From the IMG/VR virus record IMGVR_UViG_3300034091_000309: DNA of 64,000 nt; one strand, 5' to 3'. This document shows, one piece after another, positions 677 through 14,390 of the stretch. Made by a program: the position numbers and the translations under genes. Positions within the stretch are counted from its first letter, which is position 1; each line of letters begins with the position of its first letter. Below the pieces are notes generated by a model. That model saw only the letters and a program-made list of their open reading frames with translations, did no database searches and was not told the DNA's origin. The DNA comes from a virus. Taxonomy: Duplodnaviria > Heunggongvirae > Uroviricota > Caudoviricetes.

Positions 677-682
677 ATGTAC

Positions 683-1335: not shown

Positions 1336-1348
1336 CTATAATTGCGGG
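1336..1348 (+). promoter_or_regulatory. leaderless-type promoter -10 (TATAAT tgcgggc ATG)
   Basis: The -10 hexamer lies 7 nt upstream of the ATG; the motif TATAAT-N-GCGGNC-ATG recurs 6 times in the window. Confidence 0.45.
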
Positions 1349-1568
1349 CATGAAGATTTTTTTGAGGGTTGAACTGCCCGATAAGTTAGCGCGGGAGTTT
1401 TGGCAGCAGCTTCGCGACTTCGACGTGAAGCACGACCCGCGCCACGAAGACAAGATCATGATTCGCGCATTGAGCGAATCTGACCATTCGGCGGAAGAAA
1501 TGGAGACCATCTTGCGGACGCTGAGCCCTCCGCCTAAGCACATGCGAACGATTCGATTCGATTCATGA
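1349..1568 (+). CDS. small hypothetical protein (73 aa), probably leaderless
   Basis: The protein-like frame starts MKIFLRVELPDKLAREFWQQLRDF and the ATG sits immediately after the TATAAT element. Confidence 0.45.
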
Positions 1569-1578
1569 GAGGTCAGAT

Positions 1579-1651
1579 GGCGGGATTGGCCGAGGGGTCA
1601 GGCACGGGCCTGTGGCACCCGATACAGGAGTTCGAGACTCCTATCCCGCCC
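1579..1651 (+). tRNA. tRNA-His(GTG)-like (mismatch in anticodon stem, no G-1)
   Basis: Acceptor strands ggcggga/tcccgcc pair, the anticodon loop is ctGTGgc, the T-arm is aggag-ttcgaga-ctcct, and the discriminator is C. Confidence 0.45.
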
Positions 1652-1665
1652 CAAGAAAGGCGTAG

Positions 1666-2094
1666 ATGCACGACATTAAGGAGATCCGCAGAAATCCGGA
1701 AGAGTACAAACGCCGCTTAGCCAGACGAATGGGCGCGGAGGAAGCGGCCGAGATGATGGACGAGATTCTTCGGCTGGATGCGAAGGTTCGCAAACGGGAT
1801 GCGGAGACGCAGGAAGTGCGCACCGAGCAGAATCGCGTCAGCAAAGAAATCGGAGATCTGAAACGCAAGGGCGGCGATACTAGGGAACTGGAAAGGTACG
1901 CTGCGGCTTTGAAAAAGCTATACGTTTTGGCGGAGTACGGGAGACTCGAAGAGTTTCTCTCCGAATGCAAAGCGGAAATCGGCGGAACGGCCAGCATTGC
2001 AAAAAGATGGAAGAGATGGATGTGCCGCTTGGTGGCAAGATGCAAGCGGCTAAAGATCGGGCGCGGATGGGCAGCGCGTGGCTCACCAGCGTGA
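1666..2094 (+). CDS. seryl-tRNA synthetase N-terminal coiled-coil (tRNA-binding arm) fragment; truncated serS-like protein or remnant
   Basis: Residues 1-95 (MHDIKEIRRNPEEYKRRLARRMG...NRVSKEIGDLKRKGGDTRELE...) align to the SerRS N-terminal arm; no class-II catalytic core follows. Confidence 0.5.
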   Translation: MHDIKEIRRNPEEYKRRLARRMGAEEAAEMMDEILRLDAKVRKRDAETQEVRTEQNRVSKEIGDLKRKGGDTRELERYAAALKKLYVLAEYGRLEEFLSECKAEIGGTASIAKRWKRWMCRLVARCKRLKIGRGWAARGSPA

Positions 2095-2412
2095 GGTAAA
2101 CTTGCGCAGAGCGGACAAGGCTTTGGCCGCGCCCGATAGTATGGAGACGAAGATGGACCGAGGAGAACGGCGGTACAGGACGGGAAAGGTGACTGGCAGA
2201 CGGTGGCAACGGGCATTGAAATATGCTGCGTTGCTTCAGTCATTCGGGAGAAGGGGCCCGGCAAGTGTGCAGAAGATGATGCGGCCAGGGCTTTATCGCA
2301 AATGGAATATGACTTGGGACTGCCGTCGTGCTCGGCAATGGTGGGCCCGGCATGAGGGCAGGGAGCAGCAAAGAATTATGGATGCCCGGCATAATGGGTT
2401 GCCGGAAGATGT

Positions 2413-2486
2413 GGGGGCGTAGCTCAGTTTGGGAGAGCGTCTGCTTTGCAAGCAGAGGGTCGCGGGTTCGATGCCTGCCGCCTCCA
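2413..2486 (+). tRNA. tRNA-Ala(TGC)
   Basis: Canonical cloverleaf: acceptor gggggcg/cgcctcc with G3:U70, D-arm gctcagtttgggagagc, anticodon loop ttTGCaa, CCA encoded. Confidence 0.8.
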
Positions 2487-2546
2487 CCACGATAGTGAAC
2501 AGTTATCAGCGGACAGCTTACAATTGAAAGGCTCGATCAACAATTT

Positions 2547-2619
2547 GCCGACTGAGCTAGTGCGGTCATAGCATTGGTCTGAAAAGCCAACCAATCCGGT
2601 CCGACTCCGGAAGTCGGCA
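2547..2619 (+). tRNA. tRNA-Phe(GAA)-like with atypical T-loop
   Basis: Acceptor strands gccgact/agtcggc pair, the D-stem is gcta/tagc, the anticodon loop is ctGAAaa, and the T-stem tccgg/ccgga closes loop tccgact. Confidence 0.4.
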
Positions 2620-2638
2620 CCATCCCCGAGGAGACCGC

Positions 2639-2917
2639 ATGACGCGCTGCAGACAGCCCGTAAAGGATGACGATGTGGAGGTCTTCGTTGTCAACTGCAT
2701 GACGCCGGGCGGCGACGCCACGGTGGGGATTCTCTGCGAGAAGTGCGGCAAGCGGTTTTTCACCCATCCGGAAAACCGCGCTCTGGCCATGGAACGGGAG
2801 ATGAAGGTTCTTTGCCTCTCCTGCGCATTGGAGTTGGCGGCGCGAGAAAAAGAGAAGTTCAGGATCGGGGGCATCGTCCGCAAGGGGAAGATCGTTGATC
2901 GACCACAGCAAGAGTGA
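2639..2917 (+). CDS. small zinc-ribbon protein (CxxC x2), hypothetical
   Basis: RBS gaggag precedes the ATG; the protein carries CEKCG and CLSC motifs. Confidence 0.5.
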   Translation: MTRCRQPVKDDDVEVFVVNCMTPGGDATVGILCEKCGKRFFTHPENRALAMEREMKVLCLSCALELAAREKEKFRIGGIVRKGKIVDRPQQE

Positions 2918-3077
2918 ACGATAGTCGGCAAAGCATCGGAGAGTGGCCACCATATCGGAGAAGCAATGAAGGTCGAGAGACTCAGCAGTACCACCACTAA
3001 GATCATCGAGGAAACAGAGGTTCTGGTTGACGGAAGAAAAGGAAAGTACGTCACAGAATACACAGTGGAGTTCAAAT

Positions 3078-3151
3078 CGGAGAGTGGCCAAGTGGGGAAG
3101 GCCCCGGTTTCGGGAACCGGAAATGCGTGAGTTCGAGCCTCACCTCTCCGA
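3078..3151 (+). tRNA. tRNA-Pro(CGG)
   Basis: Acceptor strands cggagag/ctctccg pair, the D-arm is ggccaagtggggaaggcc, the anticodon loop is ttCGGga, the T-arm is gtgag-ttcgagc-ctcac, and CCA is encoded. Confidence 0.7.
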
Positions 3152-3202
3152 CCAGATTTTTAGTAAGGAGGATGCCATGTCACAGCGGGAAGCGCACAAG
3201 AG

Positions 3203-4096
3203 GTGATCGACGAGATCACCTCTATCATCGAAGACTTCGGCTTAAAGCCAGAGTTCAGAACTAATGTGATTCCACCCGAGGATGATGTCTCGACGTTGTT
3301 CGTCATTGCCGGGATGCAACCGCTGAAACATCGGTTTGCGTCGTCGGATGGTTGCCAGTACGCGAGTTTTCAATCCTGCATACGAACCAATGATCTAAAT
3401 CAAGTCGGCGATGGAATGCACCTGACCAGCTTTACGATGGTCGGTACCTTCGGTTTTGGGAGCCGGAATTATGAAGAGCATTGCGCTCTTTGGGATCGGG
3501 TCGTCAGGCGGTTGGGAATAAGAGTTGATGTTCTCAGATTTCATCCCGACTCAAGCCACCAAGAGATCTGGAATCATCTCGGATACAAAACCGAAGCGGA
3601 CACGAATTGTGTCTGGAGGGCCAGCGAATCGGATGAGGACAGCTACTGCTCGGAGATGTTTGTCGGCGACGTGGAGATCGGGAACCTAGTGAATCCAGGG
3701 CACCATTCGGTCGATGTCGGTTTTGGTTTGGAACGGCTGGTGGCGCTGGTCGAGGGTGTTTCGACGGTGGATGCATCCACGTTGTTCGACCAGCGGTTAC
3801 CGCCAGTAGCGCGGGACCACAAGCGGACGCTGGAGTTGTTGTACGCCAATGGAATACGGCCGGGGAACAAGGGCCGGCAGTACGTCTGTCGCCGATTGCT
3901 GCGCAGACTGATTCGGGAGGCTGGGAATTTTCGGGATTTCAACTTTGCGGAGATGCTGGAGGAGGAGATACGATTTTTCAACCAGCGGCTTTCCATTGCC
4001 CGGCGTGCCTGGAGGAGACAGCAGCACCAGGACGCATCCTTCTGGTGGGAGACTCACGGGATACTGCCGGAGGAGATGGATTTGGTAAAAAACTGA
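3203..4096 (+). CDS. alanyl-tRNA synthetase catalytic-domain homolog (minimal AlaRS-like, 297 aa; no tRNA-recognition, editing or C-Ala domains)
   Basis: Class-II AlaRS motifs are present: TLFVIAGMQPLK, SCIRTNDLNQVGDGMHLTSFTMVGTFGFG, GFGLERLVALVEG, RRLLRRLIREAG. The GTG start overlaps the stop of a 9-codon uORF that has a strong RBS. Confidence 0.6.
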   Translation: MIDEITSIIEDFGLKPEFRTNVIPPEDDVSTLFVIAGMQPLKHRFASSDGCQYASFQSCIRTNDLNQVGDGMHLTSFTMVGTFGFGSRNYEEHCALWDRVVRRLGIRVDVLRFHPDSSHQEIWNHLGYKTEADTNCVWRASESDEDSYCSEMFVGDVEIGNLVNPGHHSVDVGFGLERLVALVEGVSTVDASTLFDQRLPPVARDHKRTLELLYANGIRPGNKGRQYVCRRLLRRLIREAGNFRDFNFAEMLEEEIRFFNQRLSIARRAWRRQQHQDASFWWETHGILPEEMDLVKN

Positions 4097-4118
4097 TCCC
4101 TGACCACTGCTTTTATGA

Positions 4119-4130
4119 TATATTGCGGCC
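4119..4130 (+). promoter_or_regulatory. leaderless-type promoter -10 (TATATT gcggcc ATG)
   Basis: A recurrent motif sits directly upstream of ATG 4131. Confidence 0.45.
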
Positions 4131-4667
4131 ATGATTCGTTTGATTTGTTGGCTGGTCGCCTACGACGAGTGGTTTGCCGGAAGGGTGGAGACATTGCTCA
4201 AGTGGCTGGAGGAGTGGCTCTCTATCAGCCAAAAATACGCAGAGCGAGGGATGATCGCGCTCTATTTGGCATTGATGGAGCTGCAGCCGTCAGTAAAAGG
4301 CACGATCTGGTTGAGAGCCGGGGGTGCGATCTTGATGTCTTATGTCTTGTGGTGGATGCACCGGAGGCCGCTCACCAACCGTGGAACAACAAAGCGTTAT
4401 CCTTTTGCCGCAGTCTCTAGGGTGTTGATCCAGGCATTTCTTTTATTGGTTGCCGCCGACTTTTTTGCTTTCTATTTTTTTGCTTTACCCCATCGCCCTT
4501 CCGTCATCGGCACTGGCACCGCGCAGATCGTCTATCTGGTCTTCATTTACATGACCGACATCGCCTCCAATGGAGATCGCGGGAGACGGCGGAAGCTGGC
4601 CTGGGCGGAGCTGAAGAAACTCTTTGGAACCGAGTGGATACCCAAGCCGCTGCCGGTGCCGCAGTGA
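4131..4667 (+). CDS. integral membrane protein, hypothetical
   Basis: 178 aa containing several hydrophobic segments. Confidence 0.5.
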   Translation: MIRLICWLVAYDEWFAGRVETLLKWLEEWLSISQKYAERGMIALYLALMELQPSVKGTIWLRAGGAILMSYVLWWMHRRPLTNRGTTKRYPFAAVSRVLIQAFLLLVAADFFAFYFFALPHRPSVIGTGTAQIVYLVFIYMTDIASNGDRGRRRKLAWAELKKLFGTEWIPKPLPVPQ

Positions 4668-4708
4668 ACGGTGCGAAAGACAGTGGTCAGTGTGAGTGAA
4701 TTGCGGGC

Positions 4709-4972
4709 ATGAGCAGACAAAAATTTGACGACCAATGCCCAGGATGTCGGCCAGCGATGGTCGACCTTCAAACAGGGAAAGTGCTGCCGGAGCACTCGCC
4801 GCAGATGCAATGTGCACTCGGCGTCTGGGCAGGGACCACACGGGAAGAGCGCGAGGCGTTTCATCGCTTTACCTGTCTAAATTCGAGAACGAAAAGCGAC
4901 ATGCAGACGACGGCGGATTTATCTACCCGCATCCAAAAGGCTCTGGAATTGATGTCGCCGGAGATGTTATGA
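4709..4972 (+). CDS. small zinc-binding hypothetical protein (CPGC motif)
   Basis: Open frame preceded by the leaderless-type motif tgaattgcgggcATG. Confidence 0.45.
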   Translation: MSRQKFDDQCPGCRPAMVDLQTGKVLPEHSPQMQCALGVWAGTTREEREAFHRFTCLNSRTKSDMQTTADLSTRIQKALELMSPEML

Positions 4973-5187
4973 ATGAGCAGACCATGTGCGCTTGCGGAAG
5001 GTCGCTGCACTACAGCGACCCCTTGTTGCAGGAATTTGTGCAGCGGATGGTGGATGAACTGGGGGAGAATATCCGCGTTACCACCAGAGACCGGACGTGG
5101 CTGGTGCCGCGGCACTATCTGGCCCTGCACGGGCTCAAGGCGTGGGAGCTGGAGAAGCTGGGGTTCCCGGAGGCGAAAAATGAATGA
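4969..5187 (+). CDS. small hypothetical protein (73 aa)
   Basis: Its start overlaps the upstream stop in an ATGA arrangement; the sequence MNEQTMCACGRSLHYSDPLLQEF... looks protein-like. Confidence 0.45.
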   Translation: MNEQTMCACGRSLHYSDPLLQEFVQRMVDELGENIRVTTRDRTWLVPRHYLALHGLKAWELEKLGFPEAKNE

Positions 5188-5461
5188 CAAAGAGCGCTAC
5201 CTTGATGCCGCGCACGGGATGCAGAGCGGTGTGGCCTATGTCATGGAGACTGAGCCAGAGCCCAAAGAGACCAGCCTCAAGCATCTGCGCGTCGGCGTCA
5301 ACTCCGCGATGTGCAACCAAGCCGCCCTGGTACGTCTGCTGATCGCCAAAGGACTGTTTACGCCGGAAGAGTACGAGAAAGAGATTGCCGACGAGATGGA
5401 GCGGGAAAGAGACCGATACGCACTGCGAATCGACCCCAGTGGCCGGGTGAGTTTGCACTGA
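5180..5461 (+). CDS. small hypothetical protein (93 aa)
   Basis: An ATGAATGA overlap suggests translational coupling; MNDKERYLDAAHGMQSGVAYVME... is protein-like. Confidence 0.45.
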   Translation: MNDKERYLDAAHGMQSGVAYVMETEPEPKETSLKHLRVGVNSAMCNQAALVRLLIAKGLFTPEEYEKEIADEMERERDRYALRIDPSGRVSLH

Positions 5462-5793
5462 TGGATACCGATTGTTACGTTTCTGAAAACGCTTTTGGTC
5501 GTTGGGTCATCGTGAACGCTGCGAACCGGGACTTGGCGTGGAGCGGCTCCCGTTGGGTGGCGCACAGGAATGGACTTCCGGCCGGCGGAGTGCAGGTTTC
5601 GAACTTTGAGAGAGCCGTAGAGGCATACGAAAACGCTGTTCAGGCCGGCCTAAAGCCTCTTACCTACAGCATTGCGGCCAAAGGCGAGAACATTACCTGC
5701 TTCAAGTGCGGCATGACAAGCTGGAACGAGAACGATGTGCGGGAGAGATACTGCGGGAACTGCCACGAGTTTCACCATCTTGGCCGGAACTGA
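5461..5793 (+). CDS. small hypothetical protein with C-terminal zinc ribbon (CFKCG...CGNCHEF)
   Basis: A TGATG overlap joins it to the upstream gene. Confidence 0.45.
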   Translation: MDTDCYVSENAFGRWVIVNAANRDLAWSGSRWVAHRNGLPAGGVQVSNFERAVEAYENAVQAGLKPLTYSIAAKGENITCFKCGMTSWNENDVRERYCGNCHEFHHLGRN

Positions 5794-5814
5794 TCGGCGC
5801 GCCAAAGGTGGTTT

Positions 5815-6012
5815 ATGGTTGAATTCAGGATCACCGAGCACCGCGTCCTCCCTGCGCAGATCGTTGAGATTTGGGTGGACGGGGTTTTTCGCGGCGCTAT
5901 GTACCCGCAAGAACCGGACGGTATACGTTTGATGAGCAGGTATATTGCTGCTGGACCGGAAAAAGAGCAAAGCGCACCAGACTCCTGGCGCTTTACGTTC
6001 AAAAAACCATGA
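5815..6012 (+). CDS. small hypothetical protein (65 aa)
   Basis: RBS aaaggtgg precedes the ATG. Confidence 0.4.
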   Translation: MVEFRITEHRVLPAQIVEIWVDGVFRGAMYPQEPDGIRLMSRYIAAGPEKEQSAPDSWRFTFKKP

Positions 6013-6017
6013 ATCAC

Positions 6018-6091
6018 GGGGGTATAGCTCAGTTGGAAAGAGCGGCTGACTACGAATCAGCGGGCCGGGAGTTCGAGTCTCTCTACCCCCA
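6018..6091 (+). tRNA. tRNA-Arg(ACG)
   Basis: Acceptor strands gggggta/taccccc pair, the D-arm is gctcagttggaaagagc, the anticodon stem gctga/tcagc closes loop ctACGaa, and CCA is encoded. Confidence 0.75.
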
Positions 6092-6115
6092 CCAGATCAG
6101 TGAAAGGCAACCGGT

Positions 6116-6424
6116 GTGGAGACAACTTCCGATGGTGAGCTGAAGTTTGAAAAGATCAAAGTGCTGGGCATGGAGCTGGAGCAGTGCAGGTACCGCTCCT
6201 GTACCGCAGAGTTTGGCGTCGGGGAGGATTGGGCAACCTTGGCTTTGATCGAATCGACGGAGCCGGGCAAAGGGCACGCCACGGCCCTACTGAAAGCGGC
6301 CAAGGAGCACTATGAGGCCCAAGGCAAACGCTTTGGCGGCTCGGTGGCCTTGAATGAGCGGATGCGGGCGATTTACCGGCGCCTCGGCATCCGGGAATAC
6401 TCCACGGACGAGGATGGTCTCTAA
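6116..6424 (+). CDS. small GNAT-like acetyltransferase-fold protein (putative)
   Basis: GTG start after RBS gaaagg; the C-terminal region is ATLALIESTEPGKGHATALLKAAKEHYEAQGKRFG. Confidence 0.4.
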   Translation: METTSDGELKFEKIKVLGMELEQCRYRSCTAEFGVGEDWATLALIESTEPGKGHATALLKAAKEHYEAQGKRFGGSVALNERMRAIYRRLGIREYSTDEDGL

Positions 6425-6429
6425 ATTAT

Positions 6430-6460
6430 TTGTGCGCCCGTTTCAAAAAGGGTGTATATT
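6430..6460 (+). promoter_or_regulatory. sigma70-like promoter (TTGTGC-N19-TATATT) carrying the conserved box CCGTTTCAAAAAGGGTGTATATTGC; drives the Y-RNA-like array
   Basis: The same box recurs at 12782-12808 and 52547-52569. The predicted TSS coincides with the 5-prime stem of unit A. Confidence 0.55.
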
Positions 6461-6466
6461 GCTTTT

Positions 6467-6547
6467 TGTCGCTGGTGAAAGAACGCGGGTACTTCGCCTT
6501 GAACACGAATCCCGAAAGGGAACCCGAGTTCGCCTGTTCCGCGACAA
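6467..6547 (+). ncRNA. Y-RNA-like ncRNA unit A (long terminal stem with bulge, candidate Ro60-binding helix)
   Basis: The 5-prime sequence tgtcgctggtgaaagaacgcgg pairs with the 3-prime sequence cgcctgttccgcgaca, leaving a conserved bulge tggtgaaa; the unit lies directly upstream of the Ro60 gene. Confidence 0.5.
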
Positions 6548-9166: not shown

Positions 9167-9169
9167 TAC

Positions 9170-9243
9170 GCTGCCGTAGCTCAGGCGGAGAGAGCGGGCG
9201 TTTTCTAAACGCAAGGTCGCGGGTTCGAGTCCTGCCGGCAGCG
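9170..9243 (+). tRNA. tRNA-Arg(TCT)
   Basis: Acceptor strands gctgccg/cggcagc pair, the anticodon loop is ttTCTaa, the T-arm is gcggg-ttcgagt-cctgc, and CCA is encoded. Confidence 0.65.
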
Positions 9244-9270
9244 CCAGATTTCTGCTAGTATCGGGTGCGG

Positions 9271-9343
9271 GGCCCCGTGGCCAAGTGGAGAAGGCACCGG
9301 TTTCCTAAACCGAAGACCGTGAGTTCGAATCTCACCGGGGCTA
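9271..9343 (+). tRNA. tRNA-Arg(CCT)
   Basis: Acceptor strands ggccccg/cggggct pair, the anticodon loop is ttCCTaa, the T-arm is gtgag-ttcgaat-ctcac, and CCA is encoded. Confidence 0.6.
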
Positions 9344-9351
9344 CCATCTTC

Positions 9352-9425
9352 GCGCGTGTAGCTCAGGTGGACAGAGCGCAAACCTCCGGAGTTTGAGGCC
9401 GGCAGTTCGAATCTGCCCACGCGCA
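9352..9425 (+). tRNA. tRNA-Arg(CCG)
   Basis: Acceptor strands gcgcgtg/cacgcgc pair, the anticodon stem caaac/gtttg closes loop ctCCGga, the T-arm is ggcag-ttcgaat-ctgcc, and CCA is encoded. Confidence 0.7.
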
Positions 9426-9464
9426 CCATCTCCCAATGGTCAGTGAACAGTGGTCAGTCACGCG

Positions 9465-9538
9465 GGGTTAGCTCAGTTGGCCAGAGCGCTTCCCTTACAA
9501 GAAAGAGGCCGGGGGTTCGATTCCCTCACCCCGCACCA
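9465..9538 (+). tRNA. tRNA-Val(TAC) (one mismatch in anticodon stem)
   Basis: Acceptor strands gcggggt/accccgc pair, the D-arm is gctcagttggccagagc, the anticodon loop is ctTACaa, and CCA is encoded. Confidence 0.5.
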
Positions 9539-9559
9539 GATTTTTGTTACAGTGCAGCC

Positions 9560-10129
9560 ATGAACGCAGAAGATTTGATACAGATCCCGGCGTTGCCCAG
9601 GGTGTGGAGCGATGAGGCGACCCCGCCGCGGCGCGAAGCGCTGTGGATCAAAGAGGGCAAGAAATGCCACTGGTGCGGTCGGCCGACGCGGCTCACGGTG
9701 GAATCGGCGCCCGATCAGGCAACCACCGAGCACATCATTCCCCGCTACAAGGGAGGTAGCAACGAGCCGGAGAATCTGGTCTCGGCCTGCCGGGAGTGCA
9801 ACGGCCGGCGCAACAGCGAAGACATGAAGGGGCTTCCCGAAGGCGCCCTGAAGCCAGGCGGCAAAGGAAAATCCAAGGTCAAGCGCATTGCCCTGAGTGG
9901 GGATGAGAAGCGGACCATTCTGGCCAGGATTGCCGCCGCGCCGGCGCACTACGAGCCGATCGACGTGGTGCGGGAGCAGCGGGAGCAGGCGCTGAAAACG
10001 GTGATGGAGTTGCGCACGGAGTTGAAGCAGTGGAAGGCGACTGTGGCGGAGCAGGAACGGAAGCTGAAGACCATGACGGTGTGGCAGGTAATCCGGCGGG
10101 ATTTGGTGGAGTTGTTGAAAGAGCAATAA
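9560..10129 (+). CDS. HNH endonuclease (embedded in tRNA cluster)
   Basis: The HNH motif reads CHWCGRPT...TTEHIIPRYKGGSNEPENLVSACRECNGRRN. Confidence 0.7.
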   Translation: MNAEDLIQIPALPRVWSDEATPPRREALWIKEGKKCHWCGRPTRLTVESAPDQATTEHIIPRYKGGSNEPENLVSACRECNGRRNSEDMKGLPEGALKPGGKGKSKVKRIALSGDEKRTILARIAAAPAHYEPIDVVREQREQALKTVMELRTELKQWKATVAEQERKLKTMTVWQVIRRDLVELLKEQ

Positions 10130-10130
10130 C

Positions 10131-10204
10131 GGGCGCGTAGCTCAATTGGCAAGAGCGTTCGCTTGATAAGCGAAAGGTTGGAAGTTCAATCCTTCCCACG
10201 CCCA
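10131..10204 (+). tRNA. tRNA-Ile(GAT)
   Basis: Acceptor strands gggcgcg/cacgccc pair with one C-A mismatch, the anticodon stem ttcgc/gcgaa closes loop ttGATaa, the T-arm is ggaag-ttcaatc-cttcc, and CCA is encoded. Confidence 0.65.
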
Positions 10205-10234
10205 CCAGATGTAAAATGGCCTCAAGGTGAAGCC

Positions 10235-10495
10235 GTGAGCATCTTCTACTTTGAGATCGACAATGATCTATGGCGTCACGCATTTCTTGCGGAAGCCGAG
10301 AATTTCGTTGGAGCCACGATGCAGGCGACGGACTTCATGCGGAAGCTGGACGAGGCGGCTTACGAGGAAATTGGCGAATTAGATTCCAAGATTACGGTGT
10401 TGAGCGACACAGATGCGATGTGGGCGAATGATGCGGCATTAAAGGAATGCCTGGAGATGCTCAAGGAACAGCATCGTTGTGAAGAAGAAGATTGA
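10235..10495 (+). CDS. small hypothetical protein
   Basis: GTG start after RBS aaggtgaag; the 5-prime limit is uncertain because the longer ORF overlaps tRNA-Ile. Confidence 0.3.
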   Translation: MSIFYFEIDNDLWRHAFLAEAENFVGATMQATDFMRKLDEAAYEEIGELDSKITVLSDTDAMWANDAALKECLEMLKEQHRCEEED

Positions 10496-10517
10496 GCGGG
10501 CGTGGCAAGGATTTGTG

Positions 10518-10530
10518 TATAATTGCGGTC
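10518..10530 (+). promoter_or_regulatory. leaderless-type promoter -10 (tgtgTATAAT tgcggtc ATG)
   Basis: Recurrent motif immediately upstream of ATG 10531. Confidence 0.45.
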
Positions 10531-10806
10531 ATGAACACGCATCAGGAGATGTTGGATTCAATTCCAGAACCCTACCGGTCGGCGCACCAGGAGTGCAAGC
10601 GGAATCGGGAGAAGGTGCTGGCGGGCAAGCGCGCCGGGTGTTTTTATTGCTTGGCGATCTTCGATCCTCAGACCATCAGGGAATGGCTTGACGGTGAGCA
10701 GACGGCTCGGTGTCCTATTTGCGGAGTTGATTCTGTTTTGCCGGATTCGCCGACTCTCACGGACGAGTTCCTCAAGCAGATGCACGAAGAGTGGTTTGAA
10801 AAATGA
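10531..10806 (+). CDS. small zinc-finger protein (CFYC...CPIC), hypothetical
   Basis: The ATG lies 7 nt after TATAAT; the protein begins MNTHQEMLDSIPEPY. Confidence 0.5.
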   Translation: MNTHQEMLDSIPEPYRSAHQECKRNREKVLAGKRAGCFYCLAIFDPQTIREWLDGEQTARCPICGVDSVLPDSPTLTDEFLKQMHEEWFEK

Positions 10807-10877
10807 GCGGGCGTGGTACAGCGGCAGTGCCCTGGCCCTCCAAGCCATAGACGCGGGTTCAACCCCCGCCGCCCGCT
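10807..10877 (+). tRNA. tRNA-Gly(TCC)
   Basis: Acceptor strands gcgggcg/cgcccgc pair, the D-stem gtac/gtgc matches that of tRNA-Gly(GCC), the anticodon loop is ccTCCaa, the T-arm is gcggg-ttcaacc-cccgc, and CCA is encoded. Confidence 0.55.
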
Positions 10878-11004
10878 CCAACTACTTTTCCCAGAGAAAA
10901 TCCATCTCCCGTTCGAACCACCGGCCGTCTTCAAGTAGAAGGCGGCGAAGGTATGTGCGCAAAACGGCGCTGTGAACATTTTCAATGAAGATTCCGTCGT
11001 AAGG

Positions 11005-11217
11005 CTACAGGTGTTGGCAGAGGTCCAAAAAACGCTTGAATATCCCCTGCCGTTGGAAGTTCGGCTTGACTTCGATGCTGGCAATGTCAAAGTAGGAACG
11101 AAGTTCACCATTCATACCAAGATGATGACCTTTGCGCACATATACAGACATCTCTCGCGATTCCAGCCAAGCATTGCTGCGTTCCGATTTGAGAAAATCC
11201 TTCAGTTTCTTTTCCAT
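11005..11217 (-). CDS. small hypothetical protein (70 aa)
   Basis: ATG with RBS aggacgg on the minus strand; MEKKLKDFLKSERSNAWLESREMSVYVRKGHHLG is protein-like. Confidence 0.35.
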   Translation of the reverse strand: MEKKLKDFLKSERSNAWLESREMSVYVRKGHHLGMNGELRSYFDIASIEVKPNFQRQGIFKRFLDLCQHL

Positions 11218-11488
11218 CCCGGCCGTCCTCTGCTATAGTAATCCCGCAGGGCGCGCCCCGGTCGTGCCGGGGTGACAAATCGGGAGGGGAAGCACTTGGG
11301 GAGAGCCGCTCTTATCCTTTCTGGCGGTATTCCCCGAAGCAGAGCGGTAACCTCGCAAAACCTTAGTCCGTGGACAGATCCATCCTGGTATAACGGTGAG
11401 CGTACATGATACTTGTGCGGACAGGATGGTCAGGGCCTGTCAACCCCAGCCGGTAGCCAATCCGGCCCCCTGCAACCGAGGAAACGGC

Positions 11489-11653
11489 GATGAATAAAGG
11501 ACGAAAGGCAAAGTATTTCAGACTGTGTGCCAAGAGGCTGCAGGAGGACCGTGAGCGCACCGCCGAGAACCGGCGCAAGCTGCTGGCTACGCTGAAGCCG
11601 GAAGTCAGAGCGCTGGCCATCAGCGAGTTCGCCAAGCTGGGGCTGACGCAGTG
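11489..11653 (+). CDS. small basic hypothetical protein (54 aa)
   Basis: RBS gaggaaacggcg precedes the ATG, and the end overlaps the next gene start in a GTGA arrangement. Confidence 0.3.
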
Positions 11654-12139
11654 AAAAAAGCCGGCGCCATTCCGGCGGTTGTCTCGAAGCGGAACGAGTT
11701 CAGTCCGGCGGACGAGCTGGTCGAGAACCATCTGCCGTACCTGCCCGAGCAGTTCAAGCATCCGGATTTCCGCAAATGGTTGACCCGCTACACGGAGGCG
11801 GTCATCAAGCGGGTAGCGCATCATTTCGCTGTGGCGGCGGAACGAGGGATCGAACAGGCTGCCAACCTGCTCTGCGATCCGGAGTTCTACGAGACGCGGC
11901 GGCAGAGGCGGGCCGAATGGCGTAGAAAGATGCGGGAGAACGAAGCGCAAGCGGAATGGGAGCGGCTGGAGCGGCTGAATTGTCCTACGGCGGAACAGAT
12001 CGCGGAGCAGATCAAATGGTCGGAGCGGCAAGTTGAATATCACCGGGTTGAACTGACTAAGCACGAGGAGAATCTAAAACGGCTGCGCGCGATGACGCCC
12101 AAAAACATTCGGCTGGTGCCCCCGAAAAGCGTCCAGTAA
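11651..12139 (+). CDS. hypothetical protein (162 aa)
   Basis: Protein-like open frame on the plus strand; the longer opposing-strand ORF looks like an artefact. Confidence 0.5.
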   Translation: MKKAGAIPAVVSKRNEFSPADELVENHLPYLPEQFKHPDFRKWLTRYTEAVIKRVAHHFAVAAERGIEQAANLLCDPEFYETRRQRRAEWRRKMRENEAQAEWERLERLNCPTAEQIAEQIKWSERQVEYHRVELTKHEENLKRLRAMTPKNIRLVPPKSVQ

Positions 12140-12206
12140 ATGAAGACTGTCCAGAATCTGGATTGTTGCGCCAAAGGCGCGTATGCTTGGGCGGCAAGCC
12201 CTGTGG

Positions 12207-12218
12207 TATATTGCGGGC
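12207..12218 (+). promoter_or_regulatory. leaderless-type promoter -10 (TATATT gcgggc ATG)
   Basis: Recurrent motif immediately upstream of ATG 12219. Confidence 0.45.
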
Positions 12219-12773
12219 ATGGATTGGAACGAGGAATGCCGCAGGGTGCACCGGGAAGGGCTGGAGGCGCGGGCCAAGATGCCCTACGAAAACGCTGGCC
12301 TCCCCTTCCGGCTGCGGCCGTATGATGAAACGGGAGAACATCCGGATAAGGACTTGGTTTTTCAACAGGGCGTCGACGATGCGCGCCGGGCGCTGTTGCG
12401 GATATTGGTTGTGCCGGTTTTTCGCAAGGTGGGGACGCCGGCGGTGCTGGTCCAGGCCGATGCCCGGATAGGGAAGATGCCAGAGATCGCTGGGCACTTC
12501 GGATGGCCGGCCGATTTGGGGTTTGAGGAGTACGAAAAGCGGTATAGCCGGATTCTGAAAGAGCAGTACGATGGCACCATCGCCAACATGCCGCCGCATC
12601 TGTGGGTGGATGCGATCTTTACCACCATCAAGGGTCCGAAGATCATTCCGTTCATCATCAGCACACCCTACCACGCCGGTGAGCATGGCGAGGTGGTTTA
12701 CGAAGAGGCGATGGAGACCTCCGGGGTTGTATCGCCCCTCCTGCCCGACTGGTGGGAGAGTCCGGTGAACTAA
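12219..12773 (+). CDS. hypothetical protein (184 aa)
   Basis: The frame starts MDWNEECRRVHREGLEARAK and the ATG lies 6 nt after TATATT. Confidence 0.5.
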   Translation: MDWNEECRRVHREGLEARAKMPYENAGLPFRLRPYDETGEHPDKDLVFQQGVDDARRALLRILVVPVFRKVGTPAVLVQADARIGKMPEIAGHFGWPADLGFEEYEKRYSRILKEQYDGTIANMPPHLWVDAIFTTIKGPKIIPFIISTPYHAGEHGEVVYEEAMETSGVVSPLLPDWWESPVN

Positions 12774-12781
12774 ATTTGCGT

Positions 12782-12808
12782 CCGTTACGAAAAGGGTGTA
12801 GAGTGGTT
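12782..12808 (+). promoter_or_regulatory. conserved promoter box (ccgttacgaaaagggtgtagagtgg)
   Basis: Variant of the CCGTTTCAAAAAGGGTGTATATTGC box, upstream of the 12826 gene. Confidence 0.4.
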
Positions 12809-12825
12809 CTTCTGGGAGGAAGACG

Positions 12826-13590
12826 ATGACAAAGTTGCACGAGTTGTTGGCCGCCTACGACAGCACGACCGGCCAAACCACGAAGGTGCGCGGAGAGTTG
12901 GCGACAACCTTCGAGAAGAAGCCTCACCTATTTGAAGGCCGCAAGAAGACCTTCCGGCCTCTGGCGGAGGACGGCGAGGTGGTGGTTGAGGATCAGCAGG
13001 AGATACAATCCACGATCGCCGCTGAAATTAAGTGGATCTCAAAGTACCTTGCCCAAGCCGTCGACGCGGCCTACCAGATTGATTTGGCCAACACCACCGC
13101 CAAAGCGGATGTGGTGGATGAGAATGGGAAGAATCTGCTTACTGACATCCCTACGACCACACTGCTGCAACTGGCCAAGCGCGTTGCCGAATGGAAGGAT
13201 CTGATCGCGGTTATCCCTACGCTTGACCCGGCTAAGGGCTTTACCGAAGATCCCACACACGGCGAGGGCCATTGGAAAGCGCGCGAAGTGGTGAAGCCGC
13301 GCAAGGTCAAGACCAAGAAGGTGTACGTGAAATACGAGGCGACCAAGGAGCATCCGGCGCAGACGGAGCTGGTGGATGAGGATGTGCCGACGGGCACGAT
13401 TCTGGAGCAGGAGTGGAGCGGTCGGATTACGCCGGCGTTGAAGGCCGAGCTGCTGGATCGCGTGGAGAAGTTGTACCGGGCGGTGGTCAAGGCTCGTTCC
13501 AAGGCCAACGACTACGCAATCGAGAAGGAAGACAAAAAGATTGGCGCAACGCTGCTGGAGTATGTTTTCCAGCCGCTGCTGGGCGCGTAA
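12826..13590 (+). CDS. hypothetical protein (254 aa)
   Basis: RBS gggaggaag precedes the ATG. Confidence 0.55.
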   Translation: MTKLHELLAAYDSTTGQTTKVRGELATTFEKKPHLFEGRKKTFRPLAEDGEVVVEDQQEIQSTIAAEIKWISKYLAQAVDAAYQIDLANTTAKADVVDENGKNLLTDIPTTTLLQLAKRVAEWKDLIAVIPTLDPAKGFTEDPTHGEGHWKAREVVKPRKVKTKKVYVKYEATKEHPAQTELVDEDVPTGTILEQEWSGRITPALKAELLDRVEKLYRAVVKARSKANDYAIEKEDKKIGATLLEYVFQPLLGA

Positions 13591-13734
13591 CGGTTTCGCC
13601 CCGGTGCGCTGGGTTCATGCGCCGGGGCATCAAGTTGGGTGGGGCCGCAAGGCCCGATCCAGGCTCAGACTCAGACTTAGGCTGATTTTCAGACTCAGGC
13701 TTTCACCCAAAGGCTTATCGCGGTGATACGATAG

Positions 13735-13792
13735 CGAGGCGGGCGGAATCACTCAAACGGAGGCCGCGGGTTCAAATCCCGCAGGGCGCCCC
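13735..13792 (+). other. tRNA 3-prime fragment (T-arm gcggg-ttcaaat-cccgc, acceptor 3-prime strand agggcgc, discriminator C, CCA)
   Basis: The fragment is incomplete on its 5-prime side, and its acceptor strand is complementary to the fragment that follows. Confidence 0.4.
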
Positions 13793-13805
13793 ATAAAAAT
13801 ATGCG

Positions 13806-13835
13806 CCCTTAGCTCAGCGGTAGAGCATCCGGATC
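13806..13835 (+). other. tRNA 5-prime fragment (acceptor gcgccct plus D-arm tagctcagcggtagagc)
   Basis: The fragment is truncated after the D-arm; its acceptor strand pairs with the preceding 3-prime fragment, giving a permuted or rearranged tRNA. Confidence 0.4.
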
Positions 13836-13880
13836 AGGCTCAGGGTTCCGGGCCGGCAAGCAAGGCGTGGCCGCACAACC

Positions 13881-13952
13881 CATTGACTAGCTCAGTGGCA
13901 GAGCGTCTGATTCATAATCAGAATGTCGTCGGTTCAATCCCGGCGTCGATGA
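13881..13952 (+). tRNA. tRNA-Met(CAT) second copy
   Basis: Acceptor strands cattgac/gtcgatg pair, the D-arm is gctcagtggcagagc, the anticodon stem tctga/tcaga closes loop ttCATaa, and the T-arm is gtcgg-ttcaatc-ccggc; no CCA is encoded. Confidence 0.65.
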
Positions 13953-13988
13953 TACTTGGGGCCGTCCGCGCGGTAGCGGGCGGCCCTT

Positions 13989-14025
13989 CTACTTTCCACC
14001 CCACAGACCAAGACCTGTCTGTGGG
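13989..14025 (+). repeat. RPE-like palindromic element copy with compensatory stem variant (acagac/gtctgt)
   Basis: The sequence reads caccccacagaccaagacctgtctgtggggaccccgg. Confidence 0.75.
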
Positions 14026-14040
14026 GACCCCGGTTAATTT

Positions 14041-14075
14041 GCGCGCATGGGCCGGGAATGTCTATAATCCCCAGC
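14041..14075 (+). promoter_or_regulatory. sigma70-like promoter TTGCGC-N18-TATAAT with ATG 7 nt downstream (leaderless)
   Basis: The sequence reads ttgcgcgcatgggccgggaatgtcTATAATccccagcATG. Confidence 0.5.
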
Positions 14076-14390
14076 ATGGCAACCGAGAACCTGCTTTACC
14101 TAATTGATGTGGAGATTGTGCGGCTGATGGAGGCCCGCAAGATCCTAGAGGCCGTGGCAACGGCTCCCACCAAGAAGCCTGGACCTAGACCAAGCTCCCA
14201 TCACAAAAAGCCGGGGTCCCCAACGACAGGTCCACGTCGTTGGGGTGGTAAGCCGGAAGCCGCAGAGATCCGGAAGCACATCATAACACCTGCGGGGCGG
14301 GCCCGCATCGGAAGAGCCACGCGCCAGCGCTGGGCGGCATTGAGGAGTATCCGGCCAGAGGCTTCCAGGCTGGCCAAACTGCCTTTATGA
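14076..14390 (+). CDS. hypothetical protein with in-frame RPE-derived segment (SPTTGPRRWGG)
   Basis: Leaderless ATG; the RPE copy at 14221-14258 is read through in frame. Confidence 0.5.
   Translation: MATENLLYLIDVEIVRLMEARKILEAVATAPTKKPGPRPSSHHKKPGSPTTGPRRWGGKPEAAEIRKHIITPAGRARIGRATRQRWAALRSIRPEASRLAKLPL
14221..14258 (-). repeat. RPE-like palindromic element copy, inverted orientation, inside a CDS
   Basis: The sequence reads ccggggtccccaacgacaggtccacgtcgttggggtgg. Confidence 0.75.

What the first reader, a model, noticed from the sequence alone, without database searches (positions are those of the whole stretch)
1336..14078. Recurrent leaderless-mRNA promoter motif: TATAAT/TATATT followed by (T)GCGGNC and the ATG start 6-7 nt downstream
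Six genes start at ATG 1349, 4131, 4709, 10531, 12219 and 14076. Each has a -10 hexamer only 6-7 nt upstream of the ATG with the nearly invariant spacer TTGCGG(G/C/T)C: tataattgcgggcATG, tatattgcggccATG, tgaattgcgggcATG, tataattgcggtcATG, tatattgcgggcATG, tataatccccagcATG. There is no room for a Shine-Dalgarno sequence, which implies leaderless translation. Other genes in the window use canonical GGAGG-type RBSs, so two expression classes coexist.
Basis: seen in the sequence. Interest (0 to 1): 0.6.

Follow-up and report, generated by a model that had tools for sequence, protein, structure and literature searches.

The report
Leaderless-gene promoters in a tRNA-rich phage
In the tRNA-rich part of an uncultivated ~134-kb temperate phage, about ten genes have a promoter −10 box placed so that transcription should begin at the A of the ATG, giving mRNAs with no leader; this is a well-supported new example of a known expression mode, not a new mechanism.

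Summary
ATTGCGGNCATG occurs 5 times (0.07 expected). TATAWT-N6-7-ATG occurs 5 times (0.20 expected). All copies lie on the + strand between 1.3 and 14.1 kb.

Two corrections: the first ATG is at 1350, not 1349, and the site-3 hexamer (TGAATT) is a poor −10.

Relatives were found by protein similarity, not by the motif. Orthologues of five of the six genes, at 42-85% amino-acid identity in at least nine other metagenomic phage contigs, keep a TAtAaT hexamer 6-7 nt before the same ATG. Their upstream flanks diverge.

- The base before the ATG is C in 22 of 22 collected sites.
- The spacer consensus is (T)GCGGGC.
- The weaker TATATT boxes carry an extended −10 TG.
- Two of the genes have an in-frame stop 12-15 nt upstream.

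About 77% of the other genes have Shine-Dalgarno sequences, so two expression classes do coexist.

I found more members at 9560, at 16107 on the − strand, and upstream of the window. One further motif copy instead drives an 11-nt leader that carries GGAGG.

This is a new member of a known kind: bacterial TA-led leaderless genes, and phage precedents such as phiYS40 and lambda cI. No transcription start sites have been mapped, and the host is unknown.

The parts
1337..1352 (+). Site 1: TATAAT-TGCGGGC-ATG. -10 hexamer 1337-1342, 7-nt G+C-rich discriminator, ATG 1350-1352. CGGCAAG lies 3 nt upstream of the hexamer.
   Evidence: Orthologues L166/L165 (85% aa identity) and L167 (57%) keep TATAAT-TGCGC(A/G)C-ATG. 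L166 lacks the alternative GTG 1263 with its SD. In L167 the ATG lies 22 nt from a divergent ATG.
1350..1568 (+). 72-aa ORF of unknown function. tRNA-His starts 12 nt after its stop.
   Evidence: Its homologues were called as 72-aa proteins with the same start.
4119..4133 (+). Site 2: TGa-TATATT-GCGGCC-ATG (extended -10 TG, 6-nt discriminator).
   Evidence: In-frame TGA at -15. Orthologues: L162 TGg-TATATT-GCGGCC-ATG, L160/L161 TATAAT-TACGCGC-ATG, L170 TATAAT-TGCGCCC-ATG.
4131..4667 (+). 178-aa conserved protein of unknown function (LIAYDAW... family).
   Evidence: It has 41 homologues, most starting within 4 residues of this Met. The longer N-terminal extensions called in some relatives translate the promoter itself (..WYIAAM..AIIAPM).
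4697..4711 (+). Site 3: TGAATT-GCGGGC-ATG. The discriminator and ATG are perfect but the -10 hexamer is poor.
   Evidence: In-frame stop at -12. It is the weakest of the six sites.
4709..4972 (+). 87-aa ORF. Its stop overlaps the next gene's ATG (ATGA at 4969-4972).
   Evidence: 225 homologous clusters, with N-termini aligning 1:1. Codon score is weak (+4.5).
9548..9562 (+).
   Evidence: There is no SD. No orthologue footprint was obtained for this site.
9560..10129 (+). HNH endonuclease gene (189 aa).
   Evidence: PF01844, E 4e-12.
10518..10533 (+). Site 4: TATAAT-TGCGGTC-ATG. TGGCAAG lies 8 nt upstream of the hexamer.
   Evidence: The homologues' N-termini align at this Met. More distant orthologues in L168 and L169 are SD-led instead.
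10531..10806 (+). 91-aa Cys-rich zinc-ribbon-like protein (phrog_30788). tRNA-Gly starts at 10807.
12207..12221 (+). Site 5: TGg-TATATT-GCGGGC-ATG. CGGCAAG lies 8 nt upstream of the hexamer.
   Evidence: Orthologues in L026, L029, L160/L161 and L170 all have TATATT-N6-ATG followed by MDW....
12219..12773 (+). 184-aa protein of unknown function. The depositors' call starts at ATG 12183, which would translate the promoter.
   Evidence: Four orthologues align from residue 1.
14039..14078 (+). Site 6, a full promoter: -35-like TTGCGC (14039-14044), 18-nt spacer, TATAAT (14063-14068), CCCCAGC, ATG 14076. It follows a strong hairpin at 13958-13987.
   Evidence: L029 and L030 keep TTGCGC-18-TATAAT-CCGCGCC-ATG with a divergent spacer.
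14076..14390 (+). 104-aa ORF. Neither the depositors nor my codon model called it. Its stop overlaps the next ATG (ATGA at 14387-14390).
   Evidence: Orthologue in L030 (42% over 102 aa, E 2e-15)..
16105..16142 (-). Additional site on the minus strand: TAGACG (16142-16137), 17-nt spacer, TATGCT (16119-16114), GCGCCC, ATG (16107-16105).
   Evidence: L028 and L160/L161 keep TAGACG-17-TATGCT-GCGCGC-ATG with a divergent spacer.
15925..16107 (-). 60-aa Lys-rich protein, conserved at 72-74% in L028 and L160.

Best explanation
The sites are promoters for the host's housekeeping (sigma-70-type) RNA polymerase, built mainly around the -10 element. Each has a TAtAaT hexamer, with an extended -10 TG where the hexamer is the weaker TATATT. 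Some also have a -35-like hexamer (TTGCGC or TAGACG). A 6-7-nt G+C-rich discriminator follows, with consensus (T)GCGGGC, ending in C immediately before ATG.

With this geometry the preferred start dinucleotide, pyrimidine at -1 and purine at +1, is C then the A of the ATG. The mRNA should therefore begin with AUG and be translated without a Shine-Dalgarno interaction, by ribosomes binding the 5'-terminal AUG.

About ten genes use this mode. All lie in a ~22-kb tRNA-array and accessory region, from about -5.5 kb to 16.1 kb in window coordinates, of a ~134-kb genome. That genome carries phage-type integrase and recombination genes and was assembled at equal length, with different start points, in several samples. 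Most other genes of the genome are SD-led.

What is shown: the motif, its enrichment, its fixed geometry, the absence of SD, the conserved starts, and the conservation of the arrangement across diverged relatives.

What is inferred: the start-site position, recognition by the host sigma factor, and the mode of translation. Also inferred is that the G+C-rich discriminator fixes a single start site and may make these promoters sensitive to growth rate or the stringent response, as in stable-RNA promoters.
For: 1. Enrichment: (5 hits against 0.07 and 0.20 expected).

2. Footprints in orthologues that were retrieved by protein similarity only:
- 4131 family, 4 of 4 genomes: window, L160/161, L162, L170.
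- 12219 family, 5 of 5: window, L026, L029, L160, L170.
- 1350 family, 3 of 3: window, L166, L167.
- 14076 family, 2 of 2: window, L029/L030.
- 16107(-) family, 3 of 3: window, L028, L160.
In each case the upstream flanks diverge.

3. The hexamer positions that my search pattern did not force still match TATAAT: T3 in 18 of 22, A4 in 19 of 22, A or T at position 5 in 18 of 22.

4. C at -1 in 22 of 22 sites, against 19 of 62 for SD-led genes. G+C of -6..-1 is 0.94 against 0.55.

5. TGn precedes 5 of 7 TATATT boxes and 0 of 11 TATAAT boxes. This compensation is specific to transcription.

6. In-frame stops at -15 and -12 for 4131 and 4709.

7. In L167, two divergent ATGs lie 22 nt apart, each 7 nt from overlapping TATAAT hexamers on opposite strands.

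8. From the mis-called N-terminal extension AIIAPM of P0031, I predicted TATAAT-TGCGCCC-ATG. The DNA of L170 then showed exactly that.

9. All candidate starts are ATG.

10. Published signature: TANNNT about 12 nt upstream of the start marks bacterial leaderless genes (PMC3160421). In Deinococcus, a -10 motif lies directly upstream of leaderless start codons with no conserved -35 (PMC4007540, PMC12340547).
Against: - No 5'-end data exist for this genome.
- Most sites lack a -35 hexamer that passes a consensus scan.
- Site 3 has no acceptable -10, yet keeps ATTGCGGGCATG exactly.
- The motif copy at window position -2866 is followed by a conserved gene that starts at a second ATG 11 nt downstream, behind GGAGG. 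There the motif's ATG is not the functional start.
- A degenerate copy, TAATTT-GCGCGC-ATG at 14035, opens only a 6-codon ORF.
- Orthologues of the 10531 gene in L168 and L169 are SD-led.
- My collection of 22 sites was selected with the pattern TANNNT, so positions 1, 2 and 6 of the hexamer are not independent evidence. Many of the sites are also orthologues of each other.
- The host, and so its sigma-factor specificity and capacity for leaderless translation, is unknown.
Confidence: 0.8

Rival explanations
1. The motif is a promoter module, but leaderless translation is not its point. On this view TATAWT-(T)GCGGGC-CATG(G) is a copied core promoter plus initial transcribed sequence, and the ATG is used as a start codon only where an ORF happens to follow.
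For: - The copy at -2866 drives an 11-nt leader with GGAGG ahead of the conserved gene.
- That copy and site 5 match at 31 of 34 positions, which suggests duplication.
- The degenerate copy at 14035 has only a 6-codon ORF.
- Site 3 keeps the discriminator and ATG although its -10 has decayed.
Against: - In five gene families the ATG is the conserved protein N-terminus, at a fixed 6-7 nt from the hexamer, even where the discriminator sequence differs (CCCCAGC, TATTGGC, TACGCGC, GCAGCC).
- Most of those sites are therefore not copies of one module.
- Stops at -12 and -15 leave no other start.
Confidence: 0.1
2. The genes are translated from longer, leadered or polycistronic transcripts. The A+T-rich hexamer in a G+C-rich genome would then act as an unstructured translational enhancer, of the ribosomal protein S1 type, that replaces the Shine-Dalgarno sequence.
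For: - Several sites lie in very short intergenic gaps (34-41 nt) downstream of same-strand genes or tRNAs, so read-through transcripts must exist.
- Most sites have no convincing -35.
Against: - An enhancer does not predict the TAtAaT pattern at a fixed 6-7 nt.
- It does not predict the invariant C at -1, nor the TG at -15/-14 that accompanies only the weaker hexamers.
- It does not predict conserved -35-like hexamers at 17-18 nt in two families.
- The spacer between hexamer and ATG is G+C-rich, the opposite of an unstructured enhancer.
Confidence: 0.05
3. GCGGGC|AUG is an endoribonuclease site. Long tRNA-mRNA precursors would be cut there to release mRNAs that begin with AUG, so these would be processed rather than primary leaderless transcripts.
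For: - The sites are embedded in a tRNA array that must be heavily processed.
- The discriminator and ATG are conserved at site 3 without a good -10.
- Relatives encode PemK/MazF-type and HicB-type modules.
Against: - The discriminator sequence varies between families while the hexamer and its distance are kept.
- No conserved RNA structure or cleavage motif is evident.
- The TG and -35 features act at the DNA level.
Confidence: 0.03
4. The repeated word is the operator of a phage-encoded DNA-binding regulator, or a recombination or duplication scar, and its position next to an ATG is incidental.
For: - ATTGCGGNCATG is exactly repeated 5-6 times within one genome.
- A further shared upstream word, CGGCAAG, is unexplained.
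Against: - The word is not palindromic.
- Across relatives the exact word is not kept, but the -10 and ATG geometry is.
- Each copy sits exactly at a conserved protein start.
Confidence: 0.02

Closest known systems
Bacterial TA-led (leaderless) genes, as defined computationally by Zheng et al. 2011 (PMC3160421) and mapped experimentally in Deinococcus deserti (PMC4007540) and across Deinococcus-Thermus (PMC12340547)
   Same: - A TANNNT/TATAAT -10 box whose first T lies about 12 nt upstream of the start codon.
- No SD, and often no conserved -35.
- Coexistence with SD-led genes in the same genome.
- Orthologues switch between the two modes, as seen here for the 10531 family.
   Different: - Here the genes belong to an uncultivated phage with an unknown host, not to a cellular genome.
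- Only about 10% of its genes use this mode, and they cluster in the tRNA and accessory region.
- The discriminator is unusually constrained, (T)GCG(G/C)GC with C at -1 in every site.
Thermus phage phiYS40 middle and late leaderless transcripts (Sevostyanova et al. 2007, as summarised in PMC3594737; the primary paper was not available to me)
   Same: A phage that expresses a class of its genes as leaderless mRNAs from promoters abutting the start codon.
   Different: - phiYS40 is, from my own knowledge, a lytic A+T-rich myovirus of a host phylum in which leaderless mRNAs are common.
- There, most middle and late genes, including structural ones, are leaderless, and the phage shifts host IF2/IF3 levels.
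- Here the class is small and covers accessory genes of unknown function. No effect on initiation factors can be inferred.
Lambda cI mRNA from the PRM promoter, and other single leaderless phage or transposon genes (own knowledge; Shean and Gottesman 1992 is cited in PMC12340547)
   Same: A gene of a temperate phage whose transcript starts at the A of the AUG. The minus-strand 60-aa gene at 16107, with its conserved -35 and -10, resembles this single-gene case.
   Different: The products here are not recognisable repressors (no Pfam match), and the arrangement is repeated at many genes.
Stable-RNA (rRNA/tRNA P1-type) promoters with a G+C-rich 'stringent' discriminator, for example E. coli rrnB P1 TATAAT-GCGCCACC (own knowledge)
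   Same: - A near-consensus -10 followed by a GCGC- or GCGG-type G+C-rich discriminator.
- A location within a tRNA gene array, with tRNA genes directly downstream of two of the leaderless ORFs (1580 and 10807).
   Different: - Those promoters have -35 and UP elements and start a non-coding leader.
- ppGpp/DksA or initiating-NTP sensitivity was not and cannot be tested here, so the resemblance is a lead only.

Membership tests
Sigma-70-type promoter | -10 hexamer TAnnnT with A at position 2 and T at position 6 | tested here: met
Not met at site 3 (TGAATT). The unforced middle positions also match TATAAT (18-19 of 22).
Sigma-70-type promoter | -35 hexamer (TTGACA-like) 16-18 nt upstream of the -10 | tested here: inconclusive
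   None of the six sites passes the consensus scan. Conserved -35-like hexamers exist at site 6 (TTGCGC, 18 nt) and at 16142 on the minus strand (TAGACG, 17 nt). The other sites have none.
Sigma-70-type promoter | Extended -10 TGn that compensates for a weak or absent -35 or a weaker -10 | tested here: met
   TGn precedes 5 of 7 TATATT sites and 0 of 11 TATAAT sites. The sites are partly orthologous, so this is not a strict statistical test.
Sigma-70-type promoter | Transcription starts 6-8 nt downstream of the -10, at a purine preceded by a pyrimidine | not testable with these tools
   The sequence is consistent with it: C at -1 and A at +1 in 22 of 22 sites, 6-7 nt from the hexamer. No 5'-end data are available.
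Bacterial leaderless (TA-led) genes | -10-like signal with its first T about 12 nt upstream of the translation start (PMC3160421) | tested here: met
   The first T lies at -12 (6-nt spacer) or -13 (7-nt spacer) at every site.
Bacterial leaderless (TA-led) genes | No Shine-Dalgarno sequence, and no room for a leader | tested here: met
   None of the sites has an SD-like motif in the 17 nt upstream. In-frame stops lie at -15 and -12 for 4131 and 4709. The intergenic region between divergent starts in L167 is 22 nt.
Bacterial leaderless (TA-led) genes | The annotated ATG is the true, conserved N-terminus | tested here: met
   Orthologue alignments for 1350, 4131, 4709, 10531, 12219, 14076 and 16107(-). 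No orthologue data were obtained for 9560.
Bacterial leaderless (TA-led) genes | The mRNA 5' end is mapped at the first base of the start codon | not testable with these tools
   No transcriptome or RACE data are accessible.
Stringent-type (stable-RNA) promoters | G+C-rich discriminator between the -10 and the start site | tested here: met
   Consensus G-6 C-5 G-4 G-3 G-2 C-1. G+C is 0.94, against 0.55 at the same positions of SD-led genes.
Stringent-type (stable-RNA) promoters | Negative control by ppGpp/DksA, or dependence on initiating-NTP concentration | not testable with these tools
   This is a physiological property and the host is unknown.
Sigma-54 promoter (considered because of GGCAAG ... 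TTGC) | TGGCAC-N5-TTGC with fixed -24/-12 spacing | tested here: not met
   GGCAAG and TTGC are separated by 8 or 12 nt, not 4-5, and the spacing varies between sites.

The most novel reading that the evidence does not exclude
This phage family may keep a dedicated leaderless regulon. Its promoters would be independent of a -35 element and would carry a constrained stringent-type discriminator, (T)GCGGGC, ending at the A of the AUG. They are placed in a module that looks aimed at rescuing translation: 21 tRNAs, a Ro60/Y-RNA pair and tRNA-synthetase fragments. A peptide deformylase gene lies elsewhere in the genome. On this reading, the genes would be tied to host growth state and would still be translated when SD-dependent initiation or the tRNA pools are compromised, for example by host defence or stress. 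The unexplained CGGCAAG element upstream could then be the site of a phage or host factor that controls the class.
Probability: 0.12. Interest if true: 0.6.

Novelty: new member of a known kind. Interest (0 to 1): 0.35.

Why it matters
1. Gene annotation. The depositors' automatic gene calls mis-start or miss several of these genes: 12183 instead of 12219, 4757 instead of 4709, 1263 instead of 1350, and 14076 not called at all. In relatives, the called N-terminal extensions literally translate the promoter (..WYIAAM, ..AIIAPM). Gene callers for metagenomic phages should therefore allow a leaderless model.

2. Transcription map. The result gives a ready-made, testable promoter map for a family of large uncultivated temperate phages from peat, soil and freshwater. 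It also shows that these phages mix two initiation modes, and that orthologues switch between them.

3. Host inference. The host RNA polymerase must recognise TATAAT-type -10 boxes, and its ribosomes must accept both strong GGAGG sites and 5'-terminal AUGs.

The mechanism itself is already known, so the conceptual gain is modest.

Tried and rejected
- Exact-motif search in 19 viral loci related through the DUF7873 protein found nothing. The exact spacer word is specific to this genome and its closest relatives, so I switched to testing the geometry.
- The 12219 protein has no relatives in viral contigs.
- The sigma-70 consensus scan does not flag the six sites, because they lack a 4-of-6 match to the -35.
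- A sigma-54 reading of GGCAAG...TTGC is rejected on spacing.
- Reading TTGCGG as the -35 of a downstream promoter is rejected: there is no -10 at 16-18 nt downstream (by inspection).
- The 35-aa ORF opened by the motif copy at -2866 is rejected as the gene. The second ATG, behind GGAGG, opens a 70-aa ORF with a 54%-identical orthologue in L160.
- TACAAT-GCGGCGA-ATG on the minus strand at 62059 lies inside the gene 61868-62935, out of frame, and is taken as chance.
- TAGGCT-N7-ATG at 41675 on the minus strand is not counted, because an SD-led ATG 30 nt upstream is the better start.
- Host identification failed. The best genome hit for DUF7873 is a 15.7-kb contig of a Verrucomicrobia metagenome-assembled genome at 54%. 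The remaining hits, at or below 38%, are in Planctomycetota and Bacteroidota genomes. Nothing in the INPHARED phage collection is close.
- DNA for P0015 and P0044 was not retrievable.
- The phiYS40 primary paper is not held.
- Pfam and PHROGs give no function for the leaderless products, apart from HNH for 9560 and phrog_30788 (function unknown) for 10531.

Full report
**What the window is.** The 64-kb window has about 60% G+C and almost all its genes lie on the + strand.
- Positions 562-13952 carry 22 predicted tRNA genes. Small ORFs are interspersed among them.
- The same stretch holds a truncated AlaRS-like gene, a gene for the SerRS N-terminal domain only, a Ro60/TROVE gene, an HNH endonuclease and a DUF7873 gene.
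- Downstream come a PD-(D/E)XK nuclease, RecT, a tyrosine integrase, a DnaB-type helicase and DNA methylases.
- Exact-protein look-ups place the window on a contig of 134,250-134,264 bp. That contig was assembled at equal length, with different start points, in several samples (JGI 3300033405; ENA ERZ27256985, ERZ27256913). It is therefore probably a complete circular genome of an uncultivated temperate phage.
- Nothing close exists among deposited phages, and the host could not be identified.

**Checking the observation.**
- ATTGCGGNCATG occurs five times, all on the + strand, against 0.07 expected from shuffles.
- TATAWT-N6-7-ATG occurs five times against 0.20 expected.
- TATAAT occurs only four times on both strands of the window, and three of those lie 7 nt before an ATG.
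- The loose pattern TANNNT-N7-ATG is not enriched on its own.
- Corrections: the first ATG is at 1350, not 1349. Site 3 (TGAATT) lacks the essential A at hexamer position 2. Site 6 has the spacer CCCCAGC.

**Are the ATGs real starts?**
- 4131 and 4709 have in-frame stop codons 15 and 12 nt upstream, with no other start codon between.
- The 87-aa ORF at 4709 has only a weak codon score. Even so, it belongs to a family of 225 clusters, mostly about 80-90 aa, that align from residue 1.
- The 4131 protein has 41 homologues. Most start within four residues of its Met. The longer versions carry extensions such as ..LWYIAAM, which is simply the translation of TGG-TAT-ATT-GCG-GCC-ATG.
- The 1350 ORF could also start at GTG 1263 behind a GAGGG, and the depositors chose that start. 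Its two homologues were called as 72-aa proteins starting at the ATG. One of them, L166, has lost the GTG and SD segment altogether.
- The ORF at 14076 was called neither by the depositors nor by my codon model. It has a 42%-identical orthologue in L030, and its stop overlaps the next gene's ATG.

**Comparative evidence.** I retrieved relatives by protein similarity, not by the motif. The queries were DUF7873 and the 4131, 10531 and 1350 proteins. At least nine distinct relatives, with 50-59% G+C, show the same architecture at orthologous genes.
- 4131 family: L162 TGg-TATATT-GCGGCC-ATG; L160/L161 TATAAT-TACGCGC-ATG; L170 TATAAT-TGCGCCC-ATG.
- 12219 family: L026, L029, L160 and L170 all have TATATT-N6-ATG followed by MDW....
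- 1350 family: L166 and L167 have TATAAT-TGCGC(A/G)C-ATG.
- 14076 family: L029 and L030 have TTGCGC-18-TATAAT-CCGCGCC-ATG.
- 60-aa minus-strand gene at 16107: L028 and L160 have TAGACG-17-TATGCT-GCGCGC-ATG.

In every case the sequence upstream of the hexamer, and between the -35-like and -10 hexamers, has diverged. The hexamer, its distance to the ATG and the protein N-terminus are kept. This is the footprint expected of a promoter.

Two further results are telling. In L167 two divergent genes have ATGs only 22 nt apart, each 7 nt from overlapping TATAAT hexamers on opposite strands. And from the mis-called N-terminal extension ..AIIAPM of P0031 I predicted TATAAT-TGCGCCC-ATG, which the DNA of L170 then showed.

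**Anatomy of the sites.** I aligned 22 sites.
- The hexamer positions that my search pattern did not force read T (18 of 22), A (19 of 22) and A or T (18 of 22).
- The discriminator consensus is G-6 C-5 G-4 G-3 G-2 C-1, with an extra T in the 7-nt versions.
- C at -1 occurs in 22 of 22 sites, against 19 of 62 for SD-led genes of the same genome. G+C of -6..-1 is 0.94 against 0.55.
- C then A is the preferred start dinucleotide of bacterial RNA polymerase (established knowledge). An mRNA that begins at the A has no position -1, so this constraint acts on DNA, not on translation.
- TGn, the extended -10, precedes 5 of 7 TATATT boxes and none of 11 TATAAT boxes. That is the compensation expected of sigma-70 promoters.
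- A consensus -35 is absent at most sites. It is plausible at site 6 (TTGCGC, also seen as TTGCGT-17-TAGAGT in front of the SD-led DUF7873 gene, repeat family D18). It is also plausible at the minus-strand site (TAGACG).

**Extent of the class.** I extended the sequence by 8.3 kb upstream and 8.9 kb downstream of the window, giving 81 kb in all.
- Further candidates are 9560 (HNH; TACAGT-GCAGCC-ATG, 9 nt after a tRNA) and 16107 on the minus strand.
- Two more lie upstream of the window, at -5501 and -4602. They share the spacer GGTTTCC, and the second has a perfect TTGACA-17-TAGAGT.
- All candidates fall between about -5.5 and 16.1 kb. None is at a called gene start in the other ~56 kb examined.
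- Of 86 gene starts called by the depositors, 66 have an SD-like motif, often GGAGG.

**Complications.**
- The copy at -2866 reads TATATTGCGGGCATGGAGGCACCATG. Its first ATG opens only a 35-aa ORF. The second ATG, behind GGAGG, opens a 70-aa ORF with a 54%-identical orthologue in L160 that is conventionally SD-led. There the motif acts as a promoter for an 11-nt leader. This copy and site 5 are identical at 31 of 34 positions, so some copies arose by duplication of a promoter module.
- A degenerate copy (TAATTT-GCGCGC-ATG at 14035) overlaps the -35 region of site 6 and opens only six codons.
- Orthologues of the 10531 gene in the more distant L168 and L169 are SD-led. Such switching between modes is also reported for cellular orthologues (PMC3160421).
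- Site 3 keeps the discriminator and ATG but not the -10. It is either a decayed promoter or is translated from read-through transcripts.

**Mechanism.** The best-supported reading (confidence about 0.8) is this. Host sigma-70-type polymerase uses these -10-dominated promoters and starts at the A of the ATG. The resulting leaderless mRNAs are translated from the 5'-terminal AUG.
- Shown: the motif, its enrichment, its geometry, the absence of SD, the conserved starts and the conservation of the arrangement in relatives.
- Inferred: the start site, the sigma factor and the mode of ribosome recruitment.
- I also infer that the G+C-rich run ending in C-A leaves a single pyrimidine-purine step inside the permitted start window, which would fix the start site. 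The discriminator also resembles the GCGC-type discriminators of stable-RNA promoters (own knowledge). That resemblance is interesting in a tRNA array, but I could not test it.
- The rivals are an accidental ATG in a copied promoter module, an A+T-rich translational enhancer on leadered transcripts, an RNase processing site, and an operator. Each fails to predict several of the DNA-level features above.

**Comparison with what is known.** A TANNNT box about 12 nt before the start codon is the published computational signature of bacterial leaderless genes (PMC3160421). It has been confirmed by start-site mapping in Deinococcus, where a -10 motif abuts the start codon and no -35 is conserved (PMC4007540, PMC12340547).
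- Phage precedents include phiYS40, whose middle and late mRNAs are mostly leaderless (PMC3594737), and lambda cI (own knowledge).
- The present case meets every sequence-level criterion of that class. The mapped 5' end, which is the defining experiment, is missing.
- It is therefore a new member of a known kind.
- The particular features are the host-unknown family of large temperate phages, the restriction of the class to the tRNA and accessory region, the constrained discriminator, and the back-to-back overlapping -10 boxes in L167.

**Practical consequence.** Automatic gene calls mis-start or miss several of these genes, in this genome and in its relatives.

**Scores.** Interest 0.35. The finding is real, well supported and useful for annotation, but the mechanism is already known.

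Noticed in passing
window 6918-7032 (+), next to 7081-8526: ARAGORN calls a 97-nt tRNA-Ser(cga) at 6919-7015, but the Rfam tRNA model does not reach its gathering score there. Instead the Y RNA-like family YrlA (RF02553) matches over its full length at 41 bits, E 1e-7, which is below its gathering score of 69. It lies directly upstream of a Ro60/TROVE-vWA gene. This is probably a phage-borne Rsr/Y-RNA pair inside the tRNA array, and relative L168 also carries a TROVE gene.
   Followed up: partly
window 639-676, 8894-8931, 9129-9166, 13996-14033; partial copies at 1231-1245 and 16151-16175: A 38-nt hairpin-forming repeat, CCACCCCAGCGACGAAGACCTGTCGCCGGGGACCCCGG, recurs just after tRNA 3' ends, after the hairpin at 13958-13987, and next to two of the leaderless promoters. 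It has no T-tract. Its role, perhaps processing or termination, is unknown (repeat families D7, D8 and D14).
   Followed up: no
window 1327-1333, 10503-10509, 12192-12198; L163 5454-5460; L170 about 8044-8053: A shared word, (C/T)GGCAAG, lies 3 or 8 nt upstream of the -10 hexamer at four promoters of this genome and one in relative L170. The position is wrong for a -35 and the spacing is wrong for sigma-54. It is unexplained: possibly a factor-binding site, possibly a duplication remnant.
   Followed up: partly
window 1666-2094 and 3203-4096: Stand-alone fragments of tRNA synthetases sit inside the tRNA array: the SerRS N-terminal coiled-coil domain alone (142 aa), and a 297-aa protein matching only the N-terminal part of the class II AlaRS core.
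   Followed up: no
window 54871-55575 (+): A phage-encoded peptide deformylase (PF01327 in the depositors' annotation) lies next to an N6/N4 DNA methylase.
   Followed up: no
L167 417-444: Two divergent genes have start codons 22 nt apart: CAT-ACCGTGA-ATTATAAT-TGCGCGC-ATG. Overlapping TATAAT hexamers on opposite strands lie 7 nt from each ATG, which looks like a minimal bidirectional leaderless promoter.
   Followed up: partly
window 12183/12219, 4757/4709, 1263/1350, 14076; L162 4585; L170 1468 and 6165: The depositors' automatic gene calls systematically mis-start or omit the leaderless genes. Some called N-terminal extensions are translations of the promoter itself (..WYIAAM..AIIAPM).
   Followed up: yes
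L160 13520-14100 and 16302-18614; L161 13277-15559: Relatives of this phage carry a PemK/MazE toxin-antitoxin pair and a 760-770-aa protein with a Cas12f1-like TNB domain (TnpB/Cas12-like), immediately downstream of the DUF7873 gene.
   Followed up: no
window 12775-12825 and 6431-6460: Two similar leadered promoters were found. One is TTGCGT-17-TAGAGT, followed by a leader of about 14 nt with GGGAGG in front of the DUF7873 gene. The other is a paralogous copy, TTGTGC-19-TATATT, at 6431-6460. They suggest that the host's -35 preference is TTGCGN-like (repeat family D18).
   Followed up: no
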